Assembly: GCF_003704095.1 (NCBI RefSeq)
Contig: NW_020844078.1
Location: 1-64,000 of the forward strand
Origin: Pocillopora damicornis
Lineage: Eukaryota
Length of the DNA: 64,000 nt
Reading direction: 5' to 3'
In this document: positions 9,001-24,000 of the stretch, one piece after another
Position numbering within the stretch: position 1 is the first letter of the stretch
Layout of the letters: the number at the start of each line of letters is the position of its first letter
Program-made: the position numbers

Positions 9001-12000
9001 TAATGTACTTGAAGTTCAGTTTATTTGTTCAGAGTGGATCTCAATTAGGCGTGAAATCTTTTAGCAAATAATTAGATCGCCCATTCCTACTAGCTTATTC
9101 TCATCGATTTGTTTATCCCAAGCTATAACTATAAATATATATTTACTCTATAATTTTGTAACTTTCAGCATGAGTAACTATGTATGCGTAGTGCAATTTC
9201 TTAAGAGCAAGAGAGTCTATAGCATGATACTTAGCGATTTTGTTTGTCTCGATTTCATTTGATTTTATGCAGTATTTAACGGGATATTTTTACTCTTATA
9301 AAAAAATGTCGTGATAACCGCAATTCACGTTCCGTTGCAACCTTCTTGTAATTACTTAATAAAATGCGCGCAATGCGAAGAATTTTAATTCAAATGAAAT
9401 CCTTTTCATCGTTCAGCCCATCAAACAACCAACTTAAACCACCCAGGCATTTGAGGTTGCTCTTCAAACTCTTGAGTTTTATCTCGTTCAAACTTTATAA
9501 GAATAAATACAGACGGAACTGATCACCTCGATACGGGTGACTAGAATGACGTCATCTGGTGCGTGTGGTGGCAGTTCGAGGCCATAGGTTACGTTAGCGA
9601 ATGGTACACAAACACGGCGATCGCTTGTTTGCTTAAAGTTACGAAAGAATACAGGAACTACGAAAGAATATATGAGTAGGGTGCTCTTTATTTGACAGGA
9701 TTTGGAACAGCTGTGATTTTAAACGTGATTTAACAATGTGTATTAATAATAAACATATTATTGAAGCATGCATGAAACATGCTGTATCATGGCAATTCCA
9801 AGCCTACCCGAGGCAAATCAAACAATCAAAAATACGGCAGATCAACAAATATACAGACGTCTTTTTTCGGCCAATTAAACAAAAGGCTTTGTTCTTTTGT
9901 TCGAAGCTGTCAAGCCGATTAAGAAATCATTCAAAGTCCTTTTCAAAAGGTGCAGATTTTGAATTCTTAATTGTACCCGACAGAACCGTTCAAGGGATCA
10001 GTGGAGATTACGTGTAGGGCTAGAACACGGAACAAACTTTCTTGATCTCGTGAGCTGCAAGAGATCTTTTGTTTTGACAAAGGCTAAGAATATCTGTATA
10101 TAAAAGAACGCGTGACTCTCAGTTTGTTAAGAAACGACTGGCGCTGCAAGTGAAAAGTTCAAGTTTTCAGGATTGTAATTTGCGACATTAAGACTTGAAG
10201 TGAGCTCTCGTAACGATGTTCTCGCAAAAAGGACTTCAGAGACATCCAGTAAATAAGTGGAATGAGCGAGATGTCTGCAGATGGCTGAAGAAAAGAGGGT
10301 TGGGAAAACTTTGGAGAAATTTCCATGGTAGGCATATAGATGTTTGTATGAGCTGCGCGACTTCTTCGCCTCACTTAACTTAAGACAAATAAGTTCACGA
10401 GGAAATTAACTTTTGCAGGTAAACCACTGTACTCTAAAGGATTGACTTTTTAATTTTGTTTTTCTTATTAAAGATAAAAAGATTGATGGCAAAGTTTTAC
10501 TACAAATCACAAGTCAATATCTTGGTAAGTATACATTACAATATGCATTATAGGTTGGACCATTCATTTTAAAATGATCTTAGTAGTCACATATCACTCG
10601 CGCAAAACAGGGCGGCTTTTTTCTGTAACAGAACTTTCCTACATTAAATAGGTCGAACAACGATATATTCGGCCAATTTTTTTCTCAAGCCTAATCGGCC
10701 GGTCAAAGACCTTAAACCCGGTCATCAACAAATCGCTAGGAAGCCGTCACAGCTTGTAAAATTCATAATTATTTATGTAATCTGAAAACGTGCGTCTCTG
10801 AATACTACCAACACACAGAAAACCATTCATCTGAATCCATTTAAACACACGCGATTCGTGTCGCAGAATATCTAGTTAATCCTAGCACGCTAAAACTTTC
10901 TATAAATAAACTCAGCAGCTCTCACTTTCATGTATTTTGGTGGAATATGTTTTGTTTTTCTTTAAGACGAGATCAGATGACGCGCATAGGCATATAATCG
11001 CATGTCTGGCAAAGTTTCATATTATTTCACGCTACAACTAAAGAACAAGTCTCACTACGTGCAATATTTTTCCAATAGTTTTCCATCGTTCGATCATTGT
11101 CCGACTGTTTTACCAAAACCCTTCATATGTGTACAAGCAGATTGACATATTAAGATTCCTGGTATTGTTAGACACTAAGTCACGTACAGGATATAATTTC
11201 AAAATATTTTGTTAGCAAACTTAACTCAGGAAATTAAGGCTGACGTAACGCTTACGGCAAACAACCCTTCCCGGTTACGCAACAGAGTCACGTGTTGAAT
11301 TAGCGGTCTTCATCAAACTCATATGCGTTATTGATCGAGTGTTCGAAAGTGTATATTAACCAATAAGATATTGGCTGAGCTTATTTTTGGAACCATCCTT
11401 TCGGCCAAATTGTGGACCGCAATGAAACTGAGGTCCTTAGAAACGGTAATGACTATGACAAAAAAAGGTCCCCAACTTTCTCGAACTTAAGCTTGAATAA
11501 TGAAGGATTCGAAGCGAGCATTTAATTCGAAATGAAAGATACTACCCCATAACGTGACTCATTCAATTAAACGACACGATCCACACGAGCTCACCAGTGC
11601 ATCGCGAGACAAACTAGTCAATTTGTAAGTACTTTAGTGAAAGTAAATTCAACACGATGAAAGACCACCATTCTTTTTTTCATGATTTCAAAGCGAACAG
11701 TATAGGTCGATCTTGCTTGCACTTGATCAGTTAACCAATAACACACTTCTTCGTGTAATCTTGCTTGTGGAGCCAGCCTAAAAAGGTCTTACTTGCTAAA
11801 CGGCAAGTACGGTAAATTCACATTTGAAATACTGAACTCTCTCATTTAAATCAACTTTTTAAATGTGGTAAACCATAGAACTACACTTGTGAAAGCTTGC
11901 AGAGGACAGTTAATCAAAATCGACCGACATTCGTTATTTTCACCATCGGGGTTTTTCAAATTTAACTGCTCTCCGTTGCATGGCCGATTAGCACTTGTTG

Positions 12001-21000: not shown

Positions 21001-24000
21001 TCTCTTGTTGTGGCGAGATCCAAGCTCTCTGAAGTAAAACCGGAAGTAAGTATTCACTATATCTAAGTCAGATCAGCTATTGATAATCAGAGAACATTTC
21101 TATCGACTTTCATAAAAGCAATCATTATGTTGTCACAACGACCAGTCAGAACAAAGGAAAAAATCACAACTTATTAACGATCCATCACCAATTCAGATCT
21201 AAGTAGTATTTGTAAACGACCTTTGCGCTGGAAAACCTGAGTGAGCCTGCTGCCAGATTAAGTCCAGTTTCTGATTCGTCAATAGGTTGGCTTGAGGGTT
21301 TTAGAACAATTACAGGGCGGAGAATGCGAGGCCAACGCAATCCCGTATTTCTTTTGATACTCACTGAAAATTGCTTGTCAAGAAACATACAGTAAGACGT
21401 ACCTCTTGCTTGGAAATTCACGACACGGATGGTCAATAAACGCTTTAATTATTAGTTTTCGCACGTTGAACACATGATTTATCTATGAGCATACCCTATG
21501 TTACACCCTGGGTTAGTGATGCTGTTTTAACGAACCATTCTTTTCCTCTCCATAATTTCTTGCAGGAAAAAGACAATAAAACTGATTACAAAGACGATAT
21601 CAAAGCCTTGACGCTGCAGATACAGAATCTTGTGACTAGAGTCAGCGAGATGCAGAACGACTTGAAAAAGAAAGACGACAAAATAAAAACCCTGAAGAAA
21701 ATGGTCAAGAAAAATAGCGGAGACGGAAAAGGGAAAATTTACGAGTCTGTTCAAGTACTTGTTTAGCAATCTGTGAAACGCATCTCACCACGTGTCGAAA
21801 ATAGGGGGGGGGGCTACTTTGTATGGGCGTGGCAGGGGGGAAACTCCAATACCAATGTCTCGCAGGCATTTAGGGCCATACCGGCTTTCTTTACTTTTAA
21901 GACAGAGAATTTCACTCTTACAAGAGAAGTGGAGGGTTACGTGCGCCCAAGACAGCCCATTTCCCTTTTTTCCGAGCAGGTGCTTCGACCAGGTTTTAAC
22001 TGACACGAATCACAGTCAACTTAGGAAATGAATGTGTAGATAGCTAGGCATCGTCCCCAACAAACAGAAATATTTAATACTTTGACATATTTCAATCAGA
22101 AGGCATCAAAGGTATATCACAGAACACTCAAAACCTAGCCTTGGCCTTAGGCTAAAAGTCCACTTAATTTCACCCTTTAACTCCCAAGATCTCATTAAAA
22201 ATTCTCCTTACTGTCTGCAATACAATTCTTATGATGTTTTTTCCTGAGAATTTGGTATTGGATCAACTGTTAATCCCCTGATTGATACTTTTATTGGTTC
22301 TCATCACTTTTTATTGATATTGTAAGGAGAAATTCTGTCTTGGTCACTCATGGGAGTTAAAAGGTTAACGCAGTTAAAAATGTATCAAATATTTATGTCC
22401 TCATCATACAAAAAATTAAAACTCGCCAAAAATTTTATTTTAAGGACAGTAAACAACATTTTACTTACCGTCGCAAAGAGCGCAAAATTTTCTCAGTCAG
22501 AATAATTCGTGAAATAAAAAAGATGTGAAATTTCATTTTAGACTCACTCAGACGAAAATAATGACGCGAGAATAAATAACGTTAGCGTTATATTTTACGC
22601 AACATCTAAAAAGAACAAATTTTAAGACAGTTGGTCATCATATTATAATGGACACTATATTACTTACATTTATAAAATAAATTTAAGATATTTACAATGA
22701 AAGTTTGTCACTGTTTACATCTGTCTGTTAAAAACTCTTTGATCCATCTACAATAATGAAGATTGTCAGTCTTAAGTGTATGGTTAACTTCTCTATCTGC
22801 ATGCATCTTCAAGTTTCCTTTTTTGGCTTTGTTCGTCTTTTTCCCAACGAGACTTGACGAACGTTGACGAGGGCCGAGGGCAGAGGGCAGAGGGCAGATG
22901 ACAAAAGTCGGAATAATTTAAAGAATTCATAAGAGGTAACGACAGTCTACGAAGACTGACGAGAGTTGACGATGATAAACGAATGTGCCCGGTAACTCCC
23001 CTAGGATTTCTTTGGGTCTCCTTAAAACCAAACTTGAGTACATGAGTTCCCTGTTTATAGTTTGACAGCACGTTGATGATAAACACTTGAGGGTAATTCA
23101 CCTCCAAAAGTTAATTCCTGTGCTCATCCTCAATTATTTTTCTAATGGCTCGGACATTTAGAGCTTTAATTCACTGCATAGTCTATCCAGCGGATGTGCA
23201 CACGTCTTCACGGCGACGGTGAACATACCTAAAATTCAATTCGCTCTTTGCCACATTTCCGGTGATTCCATTCAGCGAGGCAATACTTGACATCTTCGAG
23301 GGCCAAAGTACCTTTGTCGTAAATGTACATGAAATGTAGGGCTCAGTTTCGGAGTCAGATTCGCGGAGTTATTTGCTAAGGAAAGACTCCAGTGCCGCTG
23401 ATGTCCTCTGAACAGAATTGATATTTCGACGAATGCGGTCACTAACACTGGAGGTTTCCTTAGAAGAGAACGACTGAATTTTCATCTCTCTGTTGAGGGT
23501 AAAATTAATCAAACAATAAGCTGTATCCCTTATCAACAACAATTCATTCTACAATAGCGCCATCTTTGTGTGGGTTTCGACATCTATTTCAATGAGAACT
23601 CAAAGTTGATGTGCATGGGAGAGTGGTATCAAGTTTCGAGCGATAGCAGTTTTTCATGAGGTCGAGTGGAGACACCAAAATTTAACTGTTCTGTATACAT
23701 TTCTTAAAGTGCTGAAAAGGAGAAATTGTTTATAAATCAAGAGCTTCTTTGGTTGGTGATCATTTCCTTTATTCTCATGACCTTAGTGTGTCATTCAGGG
23801 GTGATATTGTAAGGAGAAATTAGATGCCTGTCACTCTTTGGAGTCAAAAGGCTATTTAAACCATGAAAAGTTCGATGTCTGAACTCGACCTGAGTGGTAA
23901 AATCCAGTATATTCGACAATCCATTAAAAAATCACTTTCACGTCGACAAAATAAGTCCTCTAAAAGAAAAAAAAACATTAGCCACAGTTCAACTTACTGT

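What the first reader, a model, noticed from the sequence alone, without database searches (positions are those of the whole stretch)
10216..21766. Hidden 13-exon SAM-RA-RA-PDZ-coiled-coil Ras adaptor (Rau-like), largely missed by the ORF track
Seen: nine small exons with no matching ORF in the track splice in phase with the remaining four to give an ~883-aa protein with an N-terminal SAM, two adjacent RA domains, a PDZ and a coiled coil. Knowledge: the RA1-RA2 junction (VLADDARP..Q...G..KF.L.M..GGL.RV....L...A.YK...IS) recalls Drosophila Rau, a tandem-RA feedback amplifier of RTK-Ras signalling. SAM plus RA also recalls fungal Ste50, and RA-RA plus PDZ recalls afadin. Inference: this may be a fuller ancestral Ras/Rap scaffold with no obvious human equivalent. 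I know of no characterised protein with this exact order.
Basis: partly seen in the sequence, partly recalled or inferred. Interest (0 to 1): 0.7.

Follow-up and report, generated by a model that had tools for sequence, protein, structure and literature searches.

The report
Coral SAM, tandem-RA, PDZ scaffold gene
This is a real 13-exon gene of a stony-coral-like animal that encodes an unstudied signalling adaptor, probably one that binds Ras or Rap; it was found only in corals and sea anemones, and no link to fly Rau could be shown.

Summary
I re-derived 13 exons on the + strand (10216-21766). All 12 introns are GT..AG, the phases fit, and the coding sequence is 2652 nt, giving 883 aa. A natural spliced 885-aa homologue, P0027, matches every exon end to end with 793 of 876 residues identical. 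The only gaps are the seven split codons.

I read the domain order on natural full-length homologues: SAM, two RA domains, a PDZ and a long C-terminal helix. At exon level, RA passes its Pfam cut-off only in exon 9. SAM and the second RA piece fall below cut-off.

All 6 named relatives are Hexacorallia and all are annotated as uncharacterised. No fly, vertebrate or fungal protein came up. The Rau likeness could not be tested, and the "ancestral scaffold" reading has no support.

RA2 is closest to afadin RA2, RADIL and Rasip1. There is no FHA, DIL, CRIC or PH domain.

New points:
- A conserved alternative first exon (13419-13455) gives an isoform without the SAM domain.
- The PDZ is probably bipartite, with a long insert.
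- The linker holds conserved motifs.
- The C-terminus ends in an invariant VQVLV.

Function is inferred: a Ras/Rap effector scaffold. Interest is moderate.

The parts
10216..10327 (+). Exon 1: start codon and first part of the SAM domain (ends in phase 1)
   Evidence: First ATG after an in-frame TGA at 10201-10203. Donor ATG|gtaggc. SAM_1 fragment, E 0.0031, 18.3 bits, below the cut-off of 23. 36 of 37 residues identical to P0027 residues 1-37.
10474..10524 (+). Exon 2: middle of the SAM domain
   Evidence: Acceptor ttattaaag|, donor TTG|gtaagt. 15 of 16 residues identical to P0027 39-54. tblastn with P0022, E 0.001.
13419..13455 (+). Alternative first exon 1b (MSVFFSDYGVTK, then gtaaga, phase 1). 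It splices in phase to exon 3 and skips most of the SAM domain.
   Evidence: Found by pattern; context shown. It matches the N-termini of P0007 (Nematostella, MSVFFANLG..DRIG), P0026 (Desmophyllum, MSLFFSDCGITKDRLG) and an internal Met of P0025. Its use in this species is inferred.
14828..15025 (+). Exon 3: last SAM helix and a basic linker (KRRSLPARP)
   Evidence: Splice sites. 61 of 65 residues identical to P0027 56-120. tblastn with P0022, E 5e-23.
15412..15500 (+). Exon 4: conserved helix just before RA1 (ERKTPQRVLQEQTEEM)
   Evidence: 29 of 29 residues identical to P0027 122-151. AlphaFold2 gives a helix at 134-146 of P0027 with pLDDT 71-83. No Pfam match.
15896..15975 (+). Exon 5: RA1 strands 1-2
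   Evidence: 1 of 16 open AG..GT candidates of the right phase. tblastn with P0022, E 2e-4. 23 of 26 residues identical to P0027.
16299..16396 (+). Exon 6: RA1 helix 1 and strand 3
   Evidence: tblastn with P0022, E 2e-8. 29 of 32 residues identical to P0027.
17094..17184 (+). Exon 7: end of RA1 (VLADDARPLQIQ)
   Evidence: 29 of 29 residues identical to P0027 212-240.
17985..18048 (+). Exon 8: last RA1 strand runs with no linker into the first RA2 strand (FHLKMRSGGLLRVQAG)
   Evidence: 20 of 21 residues identical to P0027. AlphaFold2 makes one long strand across the junction (model residues 91-104), partly at low pLDDT.
18612..18744 (+). Exon 9: core of RA2
   Evidence: Pfam RA, E 2.3e-6, 28.6 bits against a cut-off of 21, on this exon alone. 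44 of 44 residues identical to P0027.
19197..19297 (+). Exon 10: end of RA2
   Evidence: Pfam RA, E 0.0034, 18.4 bits, below cut-off. 31 of 33 residues identical to P0027.
19520..20836 (+). Exon 11 (439 aa): mostly low-confidence (likely disordered) linker with conserved motifs. TSIDALDL at 19676-19699. Two copies of KRKVSQID..R.KF..Y at 19721-19771 and 19844-19894. A PDZ-like first block at 20210-20425. The PDZ core start at 20699-20836.
   Evidence: The exhaustive search gave 20 hits at E <= 0.001, all built like this exon. AlphaFold2 gives helices at P0027 412-427 and 453-465 with pLDDT about 74-77, and pLDDT under 50 for most of the rest. The last 46 aa give PDZ at E 0.093, profile positions 18-51.
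20929..21045 (+). Exon 12: rest of the PDZ (INGQFVLNSPLEPVIAAMKEADSVSLVVAR)
   Evidence: Phase 0 on both sides. 38 of 39 residues identical to P0027 781-819. Homologues support the donor at 21045 over the one at 21033. Pfam PDZ covers this stretch in P0027.
21566..21766 (+). Exon 13: long C-terminal helix (putative coiled coil), the tail ..YESVQVLV (VQVLV = 21749-21763) and the stop codon (21764-21766)
   Evidence: 61 of 66 residues identical to P0027. AlphaFold2 helix 827-869 with pLDDT 86-91. Only weak generic coiled-coil Pfam rows. The tail is invariant in 5 coral sequences and reads KQILV in Nematostella.

Best explanation
This is a single protein-coding gene of a scleractinian-like hexacoral. 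It encodes an 883-aa cytoplasmic adaptor built, in order, from a SAM domain, a short helix, two directly fused RA (ubiquitin-fold) domains, a roughly 400-residue linker of mostly low predicted confidence with three conserved motifs, a PDZ domain and a long C-terminal helix ending in VQVLV. The anatomy is shown. The mechanism is inferred. RA2 keeps a basic residue in strand 1 and in strand 2 in all five aligned members, and K or R in helix 1. It most likely binds a GTP-loaded Ras-family GTPase (Ras or Rap) at the membrane. RA1 lacks conserved basic residues at those places and is more likely structural, as is reported for PLC-epsilon RA1. The PDZ would then tie the complex to C-terminal tails of membrane or junction proteins. 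The SAM domain and the C-terminal helix would make the scaffold oligomeric. A conserved alternative first exon gives an isoform without the SAM domain, so the two promoters could switch that interaction on and off. The family belongs to the general class of RA/PDZ Ras-effector scaffolds. It is not a member of the afadin, RADIL, CNK or Ste50 families.
For: Gene model: 12 of 12 introns GT..AG, 883 aa; 13 of 13 exons hit in order; 793 of 876 identical to a natural spliced homologue; every junction confirmed. Domains on natural homologues: P0027 has SAM_1 48.5 bits, RA 93.9 bits in 2 stretches and PDZ 26.4 bits, all above cut-off; P0022 gives the same. At exon level, RA in E9 scores 28.6 bits. RA type: by profile, the best solved match of RA2 is afadin RA2 (1wxa, E 2.3e-6), followed by Grb7/10/14, RADIL 3ec8 and afadin RA1 6amb. 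By fold, the matches are the PLC-epsilon RA2-HRas complex 2c5l (TM 0.77), the Rasip1-Rap1B complex 5kho (TM 0.70, 30% identity), RADIL 3ec8 and the afadin RA1-HRAS complex 6amb (TM 0.83). R102 and K115 of RA2 are invariant in 5 of 5 aligned members from corals and sea anemones, and they align with R and K of afadin RA2. Both RA domains of Canoe bind Rap1, and PLC-epsilon RA1 is described as structural (PMC11698047, passages read). C-terminal helix pLDDT 86-91; helix before RA1 pLDDT 71-83. SAM-less isoform: exon 1b matches the N-termini of Nematostella and Desmophyllum proteins.
Against: Nothing was measured: no GTPase binding, no PDZ ligand and no oligomer was shown. The positions I call canonical for Ras binding are recalled from RalGDS and Raf structures, not taken from a call. 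The RA-RA model is only moderate (mean pLDDT 64.5, 5 sequences), and RA1 matched no solved RA domain significantly. Pfam covers only positions 18-80 of 81 of the PDZ profile. AlphaFold2 gave pLDDT under 50 for the PDZ region. The upstream block that I read as PDZ strands 1-2 has no Pfam match. Many RA and ubiquitin-fold domains do not bind GTPases. The whole product of this window was never searched or folded, because the joined step was left out. The architecture is therefore carried over from homologues that are 90.5% and 69% identical.
Confidence: 0.6

Rival explanations
1. One reading: this is the fuller, ancestral form of Drosophila Rau (a tandem-RA positive feedback regulator of RTK-Ras signalling), and bilaterians lost the SAM and PDZ parts.
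For: Both have two adjacent RA domains. Rau is reported to promote FGFR signalling in wrapping glia (PMC7595039, passage read). That Rau binds Ras-GTP and forms homodimers is my recollection of Sieglitz 2013, which is not held. The Atlas lists a 220-aa arthropod RA/RA_2 cluster at 0.92 for the RA-RA part, which is a lead only.
Against: No Drosophila or other bilaterian protein came up in any search: 8 of 8 hits, 39 of 39 and 10 of 10 belong to this family, and 20 of 20 hits are built like exon 11. These searches are weak evidence of absence: only the 8000 candidates sharing most words were scored, and the exhaustive search used exon 11 only.
Confidence: 0.1
2. It is a lineage-specific offshoot of the afadin/RADIL/Rasip1 group. 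On this reading a duplicated RA-RA...PDZ gene lost FHA and DIL and gained a SAM domain and a C-terminal helix, and it acts at cell junctions as a Rap1 effector.
For: It has the same order, two RA domains and then a PDZ. RA2's best solved sequence match is afadin RA2 (1wxa), and RADIL and afadin RA1 are also listed. By fold, Rasip1 and RADIL show the highest identities, 30% and 28%. The helix before RA1 recalls the alpha-N helix of afadin RA1 (PMC5653649, abstract in search listing; PMC11698047, passages read).
Against: The matches are weak (E 2e-6 at best). RA1 does not match afadin RA1. No FHA or DIL family appears in P0022, P0021, P0024, P0025 or P0027. The best solved PDZ matches are InaD-like, X11 and PDZK1, not afadin. 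No tree was built.
Confidence: 0.2
3. The RA domains are ubiquitin-fold modules that bind no GTPase, and the protein is a PDZ/SAM scaffold unrelated to Ras signalling.
For: The top fold matches for the tandem as a whole are linear di-ubiquitin, ISG15 and the talin and kindlin F0-F1 pairs. RA1 has no conserved basic residues in strands 1-2. There are no binding data.
Against: The Pfam RA score is high (93.9 bits). RA2 keeps the invariant R and K that align with those of afadin RA2. The best single-domain fold matches are RA domains solved in complex with HRas or Rap1B.
Confidence: 0.15
4. These are two genes or transcripts: the SAM exons are not joined to the RA-PDZ exons.
For: Intron 2 is long (4303 nt) and holds an alternative first exon. 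Several database models start without the SAM domain (P0007, P0024, P0025, P0026).
Against: P0027 (885 aa), P0022 and P0023 carry SAM, RA and PDZ in one open frame on contigs of 3270-3951 nt. P0027 starts with the same MFSQKGL as exon 1. The phases of E1, E2 and E3 fit.
Confidence: 0.03

Closest known systems
Afadin / Canoe (RA1-RA2-FHA-DIL-PDZ-actin-binding region)
   Same: It has two N-terminal RA domains followed by a PDZ. RA2's best solved sequence match is afadin RA2 (1wxa, E 2.3e-6). A helix sits directly before RA1, like the alpha-N helix described for afadin RA1 (PMC5653649 abstract; PMC11698047 passages).
   Different: No FHA or DIL domain. The RA domains are fused with no spacer. There is an N-terminal SAM domain and a C-terminal helix. 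The protein is about half as long (afadin's size is recalled). The PDZ appears to carry a long insert. RA1 does not match afadin RA1.
RADIL and Rasip1 (RA-FHA-DIL, with a PDZ in RADIL), Rap1 effectors
   Same: The RA fold matches the Rasip1-Rap1B complex 5kho (30% identity, TM 0.70) and RADIL 3ec8 (28% identity). RADIL is also listed by profile search.
   Different: They have one RA domain, not two, and FHA and DIL are missing here. They have no SAM domain. Their domain lists are recalled, not taken from a call.
Drosophila Rau (CG8965), tandem-RA feedback regulator of RTK-Ras signalling
   Same: It has two adjacent RA domains. A self-association element would be shared if my recollection of Rau homodimerisation is right.
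   Different: No sequence link was found. As I recall it, Rau has no SAM or PDZ domain. The Rau sequence and paper were not available, so this comparison is untested.
PLC-epsilon RA1-RA2 tandem
   Same: The RA domains are adjacent. The fold match to PLC-epsilon RA2 bound to HRas (2c5l, TM 0.77) ranks second. The pattern of a GTPase-binding RA2 and a structural RA1 (PMC11698047 passage) fits the conservation seen here.
   Different: PLC-epsilon is an enzyme whose RA domains sit at the C-terminus. It has no SAM or PDZ domain. Sequence similarity is marginal (E 0.2).
Ste50 (fungal SAM-RA adaptor) and CNK (SAM-CRIC-PDZ-PH scaffold)
   Same: Each combines a SAM domain with an RA or a PDZ in a Ras/MAPK adaptor.
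   Different: No CRIC or PH family, and only the generic SAM_1 and SAM_2 families, were found. No fungal or CNK protein came up in any search. The architectures of Ste50 and CNK are recalled.
SHANK (SPN-ANK-SH3-PDZ-SAM)
   Same: It is the nearest human protein in content: a Ras/Rap-binding ubiquitin-fold domain, a PDZ with a long beta2-beta3 loop (PMC9068651 abstract in search listing) and a SAM domain. That SPN binds Rap1 is recalled.
   Different: The order is reversed, ANK and SH3 are missing here, and no sequence link was seen. This is an analogy only.

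Membership tests
RA domain proteins (Pfam PF00788) | A sequence match to the RA profile above the gathering score | tested here: met
   Exon 9 alone scores 28.6 bits against 21. P0027 scores 93.9 bits in 2 stretches. P0022, P0021, P0024 and P0025 score 88-98 bits in 2 stretches each.
RA domain proteins (Pfam PF00788) | Ubiquitin-like beta-grasp fold | tested here: met
   The AlphaFold2 model of the RA-RA part has RA2 pLDDT about 70-87 and RA1 about 61-71. 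Foldseek matches 2c5l, 5kho, 3ec8 and 6amb at TM 0.53-0.83, normalised by target length.
RA domain proteins (Pfam PF00788) | GTP-dependent binding of a Ras-family GTPase | not testable with these tools
   No eukaryotic GTPase reference could be handed to the complex tool, and no experiment was possible. Only the conservation of R102 and K115 in RA2 was seen.
SAM domain (PF00536 / PF07647) | A full-length match above the gathering score | tested here: met
   P0027 residues 14-76 score SAM_1 48.5 bits and SAM_2 42.2 bits. P0022 scores 35.7 bits. In the window the domain is split over E1-E3; the E1 fragment scores 18.3 bits, below cut-off.
PDZ domain (PF00595) | A match above the gathering score | tested here: met
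   P0027 scores 26.4 bits and P0022 29.3 bits against a cut-off of 23.2. In the window, the end of E11 alone scores 13.6 bits (E 0.093) and E12 alone gives nothing.
PDZ domain (PF00595) | A complete six-strand fold with the carboxylate-binding (GLGF-type) loop | tested here: inconclusive
   Pfam covers profile positions 18-80 only. A conserved block, KL.TV.L.R..GE.WGIELVHV, lies about 150 aa upstream. More distant members keep it with a different, shorter insert. It has no Pfam match, and the region has pLDDT under 50.
Afadin / Canoe family | FHA and DIL domains between the RA pair and the PDZ | tested here: not met
   No FHA or DIL family appears among the Pfam rows for P0022, P0021, P0024 and P0025 (E <= 0.01) or for P0027 (E <= 1).
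Afadin / Canoe family | RA1 and RA2 each orthologous to afadin RA1 and RA2 | tested here: inconclusive
   RA2 matches afadin RA2 weakly (E 2.3e-6). RA1 gives only a sub-threshold Rasip1 row. No tree was built.
Rau (Drosophila CG8965) orthogroup | Detectable sequence homology to Rau | not testable with these tools
   No Drosophila protein was among the 8, 39 and 10 hits. The paper is not held.
CNK scaffolds | CRIC and PH domains together with SAM and PDZ | tested here: not met
   No CRIC or PH family appears.
Ste50-type adaptors | A fungal SAM-RA protein with a Ste50-type SAM domain | tested here: not met
   Only the generic SAM_1 and SAM_2 rows appear. No fungal protein came up in any search. 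That a Ste50-specific Pfam SAM family exists is recalled.

The most novel reading that the evidence does not exclude
The family is the surviving full form of an early-animal Ras/Rap effector scaffold of which bilaterian tandem-RA proteins such as Rau are reduced remnants. Its PDZ is a true bipartite domain, with a regulated loop of 80-150 residues inserted beside the ligand groove. The conserved VQVLV tail and the choice of promoter (with or without the SAM domain) switch the scaffold between closed, dimeric and polymeric states.
Probability: 0.1. Interest if true: 0.6.

Novelty: new variant of a known kind. Interest (0 to 1): 0.35.

Why it matters
Ras and Rap effectors that couple the GTPase to membrane proteins (afadin, RADIL, PLC-epsilon, CNK, SHANK) are central to junction and growth-factor signalling. 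How they were assembled from shared modules in early animals is poorly known.

This family combines four such modules in an order not found among characterised proteins. It is conserved from sea anemones to stony corals, and it is present in Nematostella (LOC5517974), where knock-down and biochemistry are routine.

If it binds Ras or Rap, it would add a cnidarian-specific branch to the effector repertoire. It would also offer a natural example of a tandem RA unit, and possibly of a PDZ with a very large loop insert.

As it stands, it is an uncharacterised but already predicted gene family, not a new kind of system.

Tried and rejected
- **PDZ and own tail.** I ran one complex job with the P0027 PDZ region (575-815) against its own C-terminal 40 residues, to ask whether the VQVLV tail docks in the PDZ. 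The result was no verdict (score 0.15 against a mark of 0.34; the controls were not run; the alignment I gave was not used). This counts neither for nor against binding.
- **Whole-protein fold.** AlphaFold2 on P0027 with 30 sequences gave mean pLDDT 49 and under 50 for the PDZ region, so the bipartite-PDZ idea could not be confirmed by fold.
- **Pfam on sub-blocks.** Of six sub-blocks tested, the upstream PDZ-like block, exon 12 and exon 4 gave nothing. The linker motif block and exon 13 gave only rows below cut-off: PH_29, Scaffolding_pro, HeLo and generic coiled-coil rows. The sixth, the PDZ core start at the end of exon 11, gave the sub-cut-off PDZ row reported elsewhere (E 0.093).
- **Exon 9 against solved structures.** 0 matches at E <= 10.
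- **Atlas.** The RA-RA part gave RA clusters from nematodes, arthropods, flatworms and afadin at 0.89-0.93, which are leads without sequences. The whole protein gave nothing at 0.9 or above.
- **Rau literature.** Of the six paper searches made, looked for Rau or CG8965. None of the six found a description of a SAM-RA-RA-PDZ protein, of LOC5517974 (0 papers), or of Rau relatives outside flies. The hits in PMC10605237 were the author name Rauch. PMC5653649 mentions neither Nematostella, Cnidaria nor Rau. The 2013 Rau paper is not held.
- **Other features in 9000-23000.** No Rfam family, no tRNA, and no Pfam family on 6 antisense ORFs inside the gene or on 2 flanking ORFs (9676-10017 +, 22793-23110 -).
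- **Rejected: the contig is human.** CpG observed/expected is 0.75, and all named relatives are hexacorals.
- **Not used or closed.** The bacterial/archaeal genome collection and the phage, plasmid and E. coli collections cannot bear on an animal gene and were not used.

Full report
**Scope and limits.** The window is animal DNA and I do not take it for human. CpG observed/expected is 0.75 at about 38% G+C, and every named relative of the gene is a hexacoral. Five runs of 100 N lie at 32226, 37129, 41917, 60670 and 62322. None is in the gene, and none was filled. The joined 883-aa product of this window was never assembled, searched or folded. Statements about the whole protein rest on natural full-length homologues returned by the search tools.

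**The observation.** Listing the AG and GT sites around each piece gave one consistent chain:
- E1 10216-10327, E2 10474-10524, E3 14828-15025, E4 15412-15500
- E6 16299-16396, E7 17094-17184, E8 17985-18048, E9 18612-18744
- E10 19197-19297, E11 19520-20836, E12 20929-21045, E13 21566-21766

The missing E5 had to start in phase 0 and end with two spare bases. Of 16 open AG..GT candidates in 15501-16298, the one at 15896-15975 has a good acceptor and reads like RA strands 1-2. All 12 introns are GT..AG and measure 92-4303 nt. The coding length is 2652 nt with the stop, which gives 883 aa. The start is the first ATG after an in-frame TGA.

**Independent support.** An exhaustive HMMER search of 1.84 billion representative proteins with exon 11 alone gave 20 hits at E <= 0.001. 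One was a 900-aa Nematostella protein, P0007. Searching with P0007, and then with a profile of seven full-length relatives, gave 8 and 39 family members. tblastn with the 876-aa protein P0022 hits all 13 exons in order.

The 885-aa protein P0027 comes from a 3951-nt contig, which I take for a transcript because the protein is spliced. It starts with the same MFSQKGL and maps onto the exons without a gap, apart from the seven split codons. 793 of 876 residues are identical (90.5%). Every junction is therefore confirmed by a natural spliced sequence of a close relative, including the E2-E3 junction that links the SAM exons to the rest. Direct RNA evidence from this species is still missing.

**Source organism.** The nearest named relatives are Oculina patagonica (585 of 823 identical over E3-E13) and Acropora muricata (511 of 823). 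The source is therefore a scleractinian-like hexacoral.

**Domains.**
- At exon level, 3 of 10 exon ORFs gave the expected Pfam family. RA in E9 scored 28.6 bits (cut-off 21), RA in E10 scored 18.4 bits, and SAM_1 in E1 scored 18.3 bits (cut-off 23).
- The end of E11 gives PDZ at E 0.093, and E12 alone gives nothing.
- On P0027, Pfam gives SAM_1 at 14-76 (48.5 bits), RA in two stretches (93.9 bits) and PDZ at 746-808 (26.4 bits, cut-off 23.2). P0022, P0021, P0024 and P0025 agree.
- AlphaFold2 on P0027 with 30 aligned sequences is poor overall (mean pLDDT 49). It is confident for RA1 (83-93), parts of RA2, and a helix just before RA1 (134-146, pLDDT 71-83). It is also confident for two linker helices (412-427 and 453-465, about 74-77) and a C-terminal helix (827-869, pLDDT 86-91).
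- So the order SAM, helix, RA1, RA2, linker, PDZ, long helix is real. That the long helix forms a coiled coil is inferred.

**What kind of RA domains.**
- By profile search of solved structures, RA2 is closest to afadin RA2 (1wxa, E 2.3e-6). Grb7/10/14, RADIL (3ec8), afadin RA1 (6amb) and RIAM follow. RA1 gives only a sub-threshold Rasip1 row.
- The RA-RA model has mean pLDDT 64.5 from five sequences.
- As a tandem, it matches linear di-ubiquitin, ISG15 and talin F0-F1.
- As single domains, it matches PLC-epsilon RA2 bound to HRas (2c5l, TM 0.77), Rasip1 bound to Rap1B (5kho, 30% identity), RADIL (28% identity) and afadin RA1 bound to HRAS (6amb, TM 0.83).
- In five members from corals and sea anemones, RA2 keeps an invariant Arg in strand 1 and an invariant Lys in strand 2. 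RA1 has no invariant basic residue there. That these are the usual Ras-contact places is my recollection of RalGDS and Raf complexes.
- The last strand of RA1 runs straight into the first strand of RA2 with no linker.

1. *Alternative first exon.* Intron 2 holds an alternative first exon at 13419-13455 (MSVFFSDYGVTK, donor gtaaga, phase 1). It would join E3 in frame and leave only the last SAM helix. The same N-terminus opens the Nematostella and Desmophyllum proteins and lies inside P0025. A SAM-less isoform is thus conserved across Hexacorallia.
2. *Possibly bipartite PDZ.* Pfam covers only positions 18-80 of the PDZ profile. About 150 residues upstream lies the best-conserved block of the linker, KL.TV.L.R..GE.WGIELVHVT, followed by VVYV.H.G.G.N. 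By pattern it looks like PDZ strand 1, the GLGF-type loop and strand 2. Six more distant members (P0014-P0016, P0018-P0020) keep both blocks and the same exon end, but with a shorter, unrelated insert. This argues that the two blocks belong together. Neither fold prediction nor Pfam confirms it.
3. *Linker motifs.* The linker carries TSIDALDL and two copies of a basic-Ser motif followed by a helix (KRKVSQID..R.KF..Y). These are nearly invariant in 30 sequences and have no family match.
4. *Conserved tail.* The tail SVQVLV is invariant in the corals and reads KQILV in Nematostella. It looks like a hydrophobic PDZ ligand. The one complex job gave no verdict, as recorded under Tried and rejected.

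**Distribution and names.** All 6 named members are Hexacorallia: Nematostella vectensis, Actinostola, Oculina patagonica, Acropora muricata, A. digitifera and Desmophyllum pertusum. All are called uncharacterised, hypothetical or 'Ras-associating domain-containing'. A search for longer proteins with the RA-RA profile gave 10 of 10 hits in the same family. No bilaterian, fungal or sponge protein appeared. This is only weak evidence of absence. The word-seeded searches scored only the 8000 candidates sharing most words, and my single exhaustive search used exon 11, the least conserved part.

**Comparison with known families.**
- It works like an RA/PDZ Ras-effector scaffold.
- It is not an afadin or RADIL, because FHA and DIL are absent.
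- It is not a CNK (no CRIC or PH), and it is not a Ste50 (generic SAM only, no fungal relatives).
- Kinship with Rau could not be tested. No tool held its sequence and the 2013 paper is not held. What I say about Rau's RA domains and dimerisation is recalled. Only its role in promoting FGFR signalling was read (PMC7595039).
- Papers read in passages (PMC11698047) show that both Canoe RA domains bind Rap1, that helices precede them, and that PLC-epsilon RA1 is structural while RA2 binds Ras or Rap. The conservation pattern here resembles that last arrangement.
- Six literature searches found no paper on this architecture or on LOC5517974.

**Surroundings.** In 9000-23000 there is no Rfam family, no tRNA, and no Pfam family on the six antisense ORFs inside the gene or the two flanking ORFs. 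The rest of the window holds ordinary animal genes.

**Verdict.** The gene is a real, conserved, uncharacterised member of the Ras-association scaffold class with an unusual domain order. It is already predicted in related genomes, and so far it is seen only in hexacorals. Interest is 0.35: moderate for people who study the evolution of Ras and Rap signalling, and small otherwise.

Noticed in passing
window 13419-13455 (+): A conserved alternative first exon (MSVFFSDYGVTK) lies inside intron 2. It would give an isoform lacking most of the SAM domain. The same N-terminus opens the Nematostella and Desmophyllum proteins.
   Followed up: yes
window 19676-19894 (+), inside exon 11: Three conserved linker motifs: TSIDALDL and two copies of KRKVSQID..R.KF..Y. 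The two copies are predicted helical and match no family. They may be kinase sites next to an amphipathic helix.
   Followed up: partly
P0007, P0008, P0004, P0005, P0010-P0013 (alignment A3, columns about 395-425): Sea-anemone-type members carry an extra helical segment after RA2 (EL..E..K.N.TI..L...I..L). The corals and this window lack it.
   Followed up: no
P0014-P0016, P0018-P0020: This is a more distant set of ORFs with the same large-exon layout: a basic helix motif, a PDZ-like first block, a shorter insert, then a PDZ core ending at the same exon boundary. They are either a paralogue or orthologues from other, unnamed taxa.
   Followed up: partly
window 16550-16672: A (TGAC)n microsatellite of about 31 copies in intron 6 produces a spurious 116-aa antisense ORF rich in Ser, Gln and Val.
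   Followed up: partly
window 605-1402 (-): A 265-aa ORF of the CECR6/TMEM121 family (E 2e-12).
   Followed up: no
window 27315-27932 (-): An ORF with the CWC25 pre-mRNA splicing factor domain and a long Lys/Glu/Arg-rich tail.
   Followed up: no
window 35665-40593 (+): A multi-exon gene with ankyrin repeats followed by IQ motifs. An N gap at 37129-37228 lies inside it.
   Followed up: no
window 44259-45566 (-) and 47468-48451 (-): Two neighbouring ankyrin-repeat ORFs whose C-terminal halves look alike. They may be tandem paralogues.
   Followed up: no
window 50407-51021 (+): An ORF with an RPAP3_C domain (E 4e-22).
   Followed up: no
window 55072-56517 (-): A 481-aa ORF with many Pro/Val/Gln-rich repeats (PVEVPVQKKP...). 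All other frames over it are open too. It was not searched.
   Followed up: no
window 57623-58204 (-) and 58346-60637 (+): A MANEC-domain ORF (E 7e-17) lies next to an M20-family peptidase gene (M20 dimerisation domain, E 9e-11).
   Followed up: no
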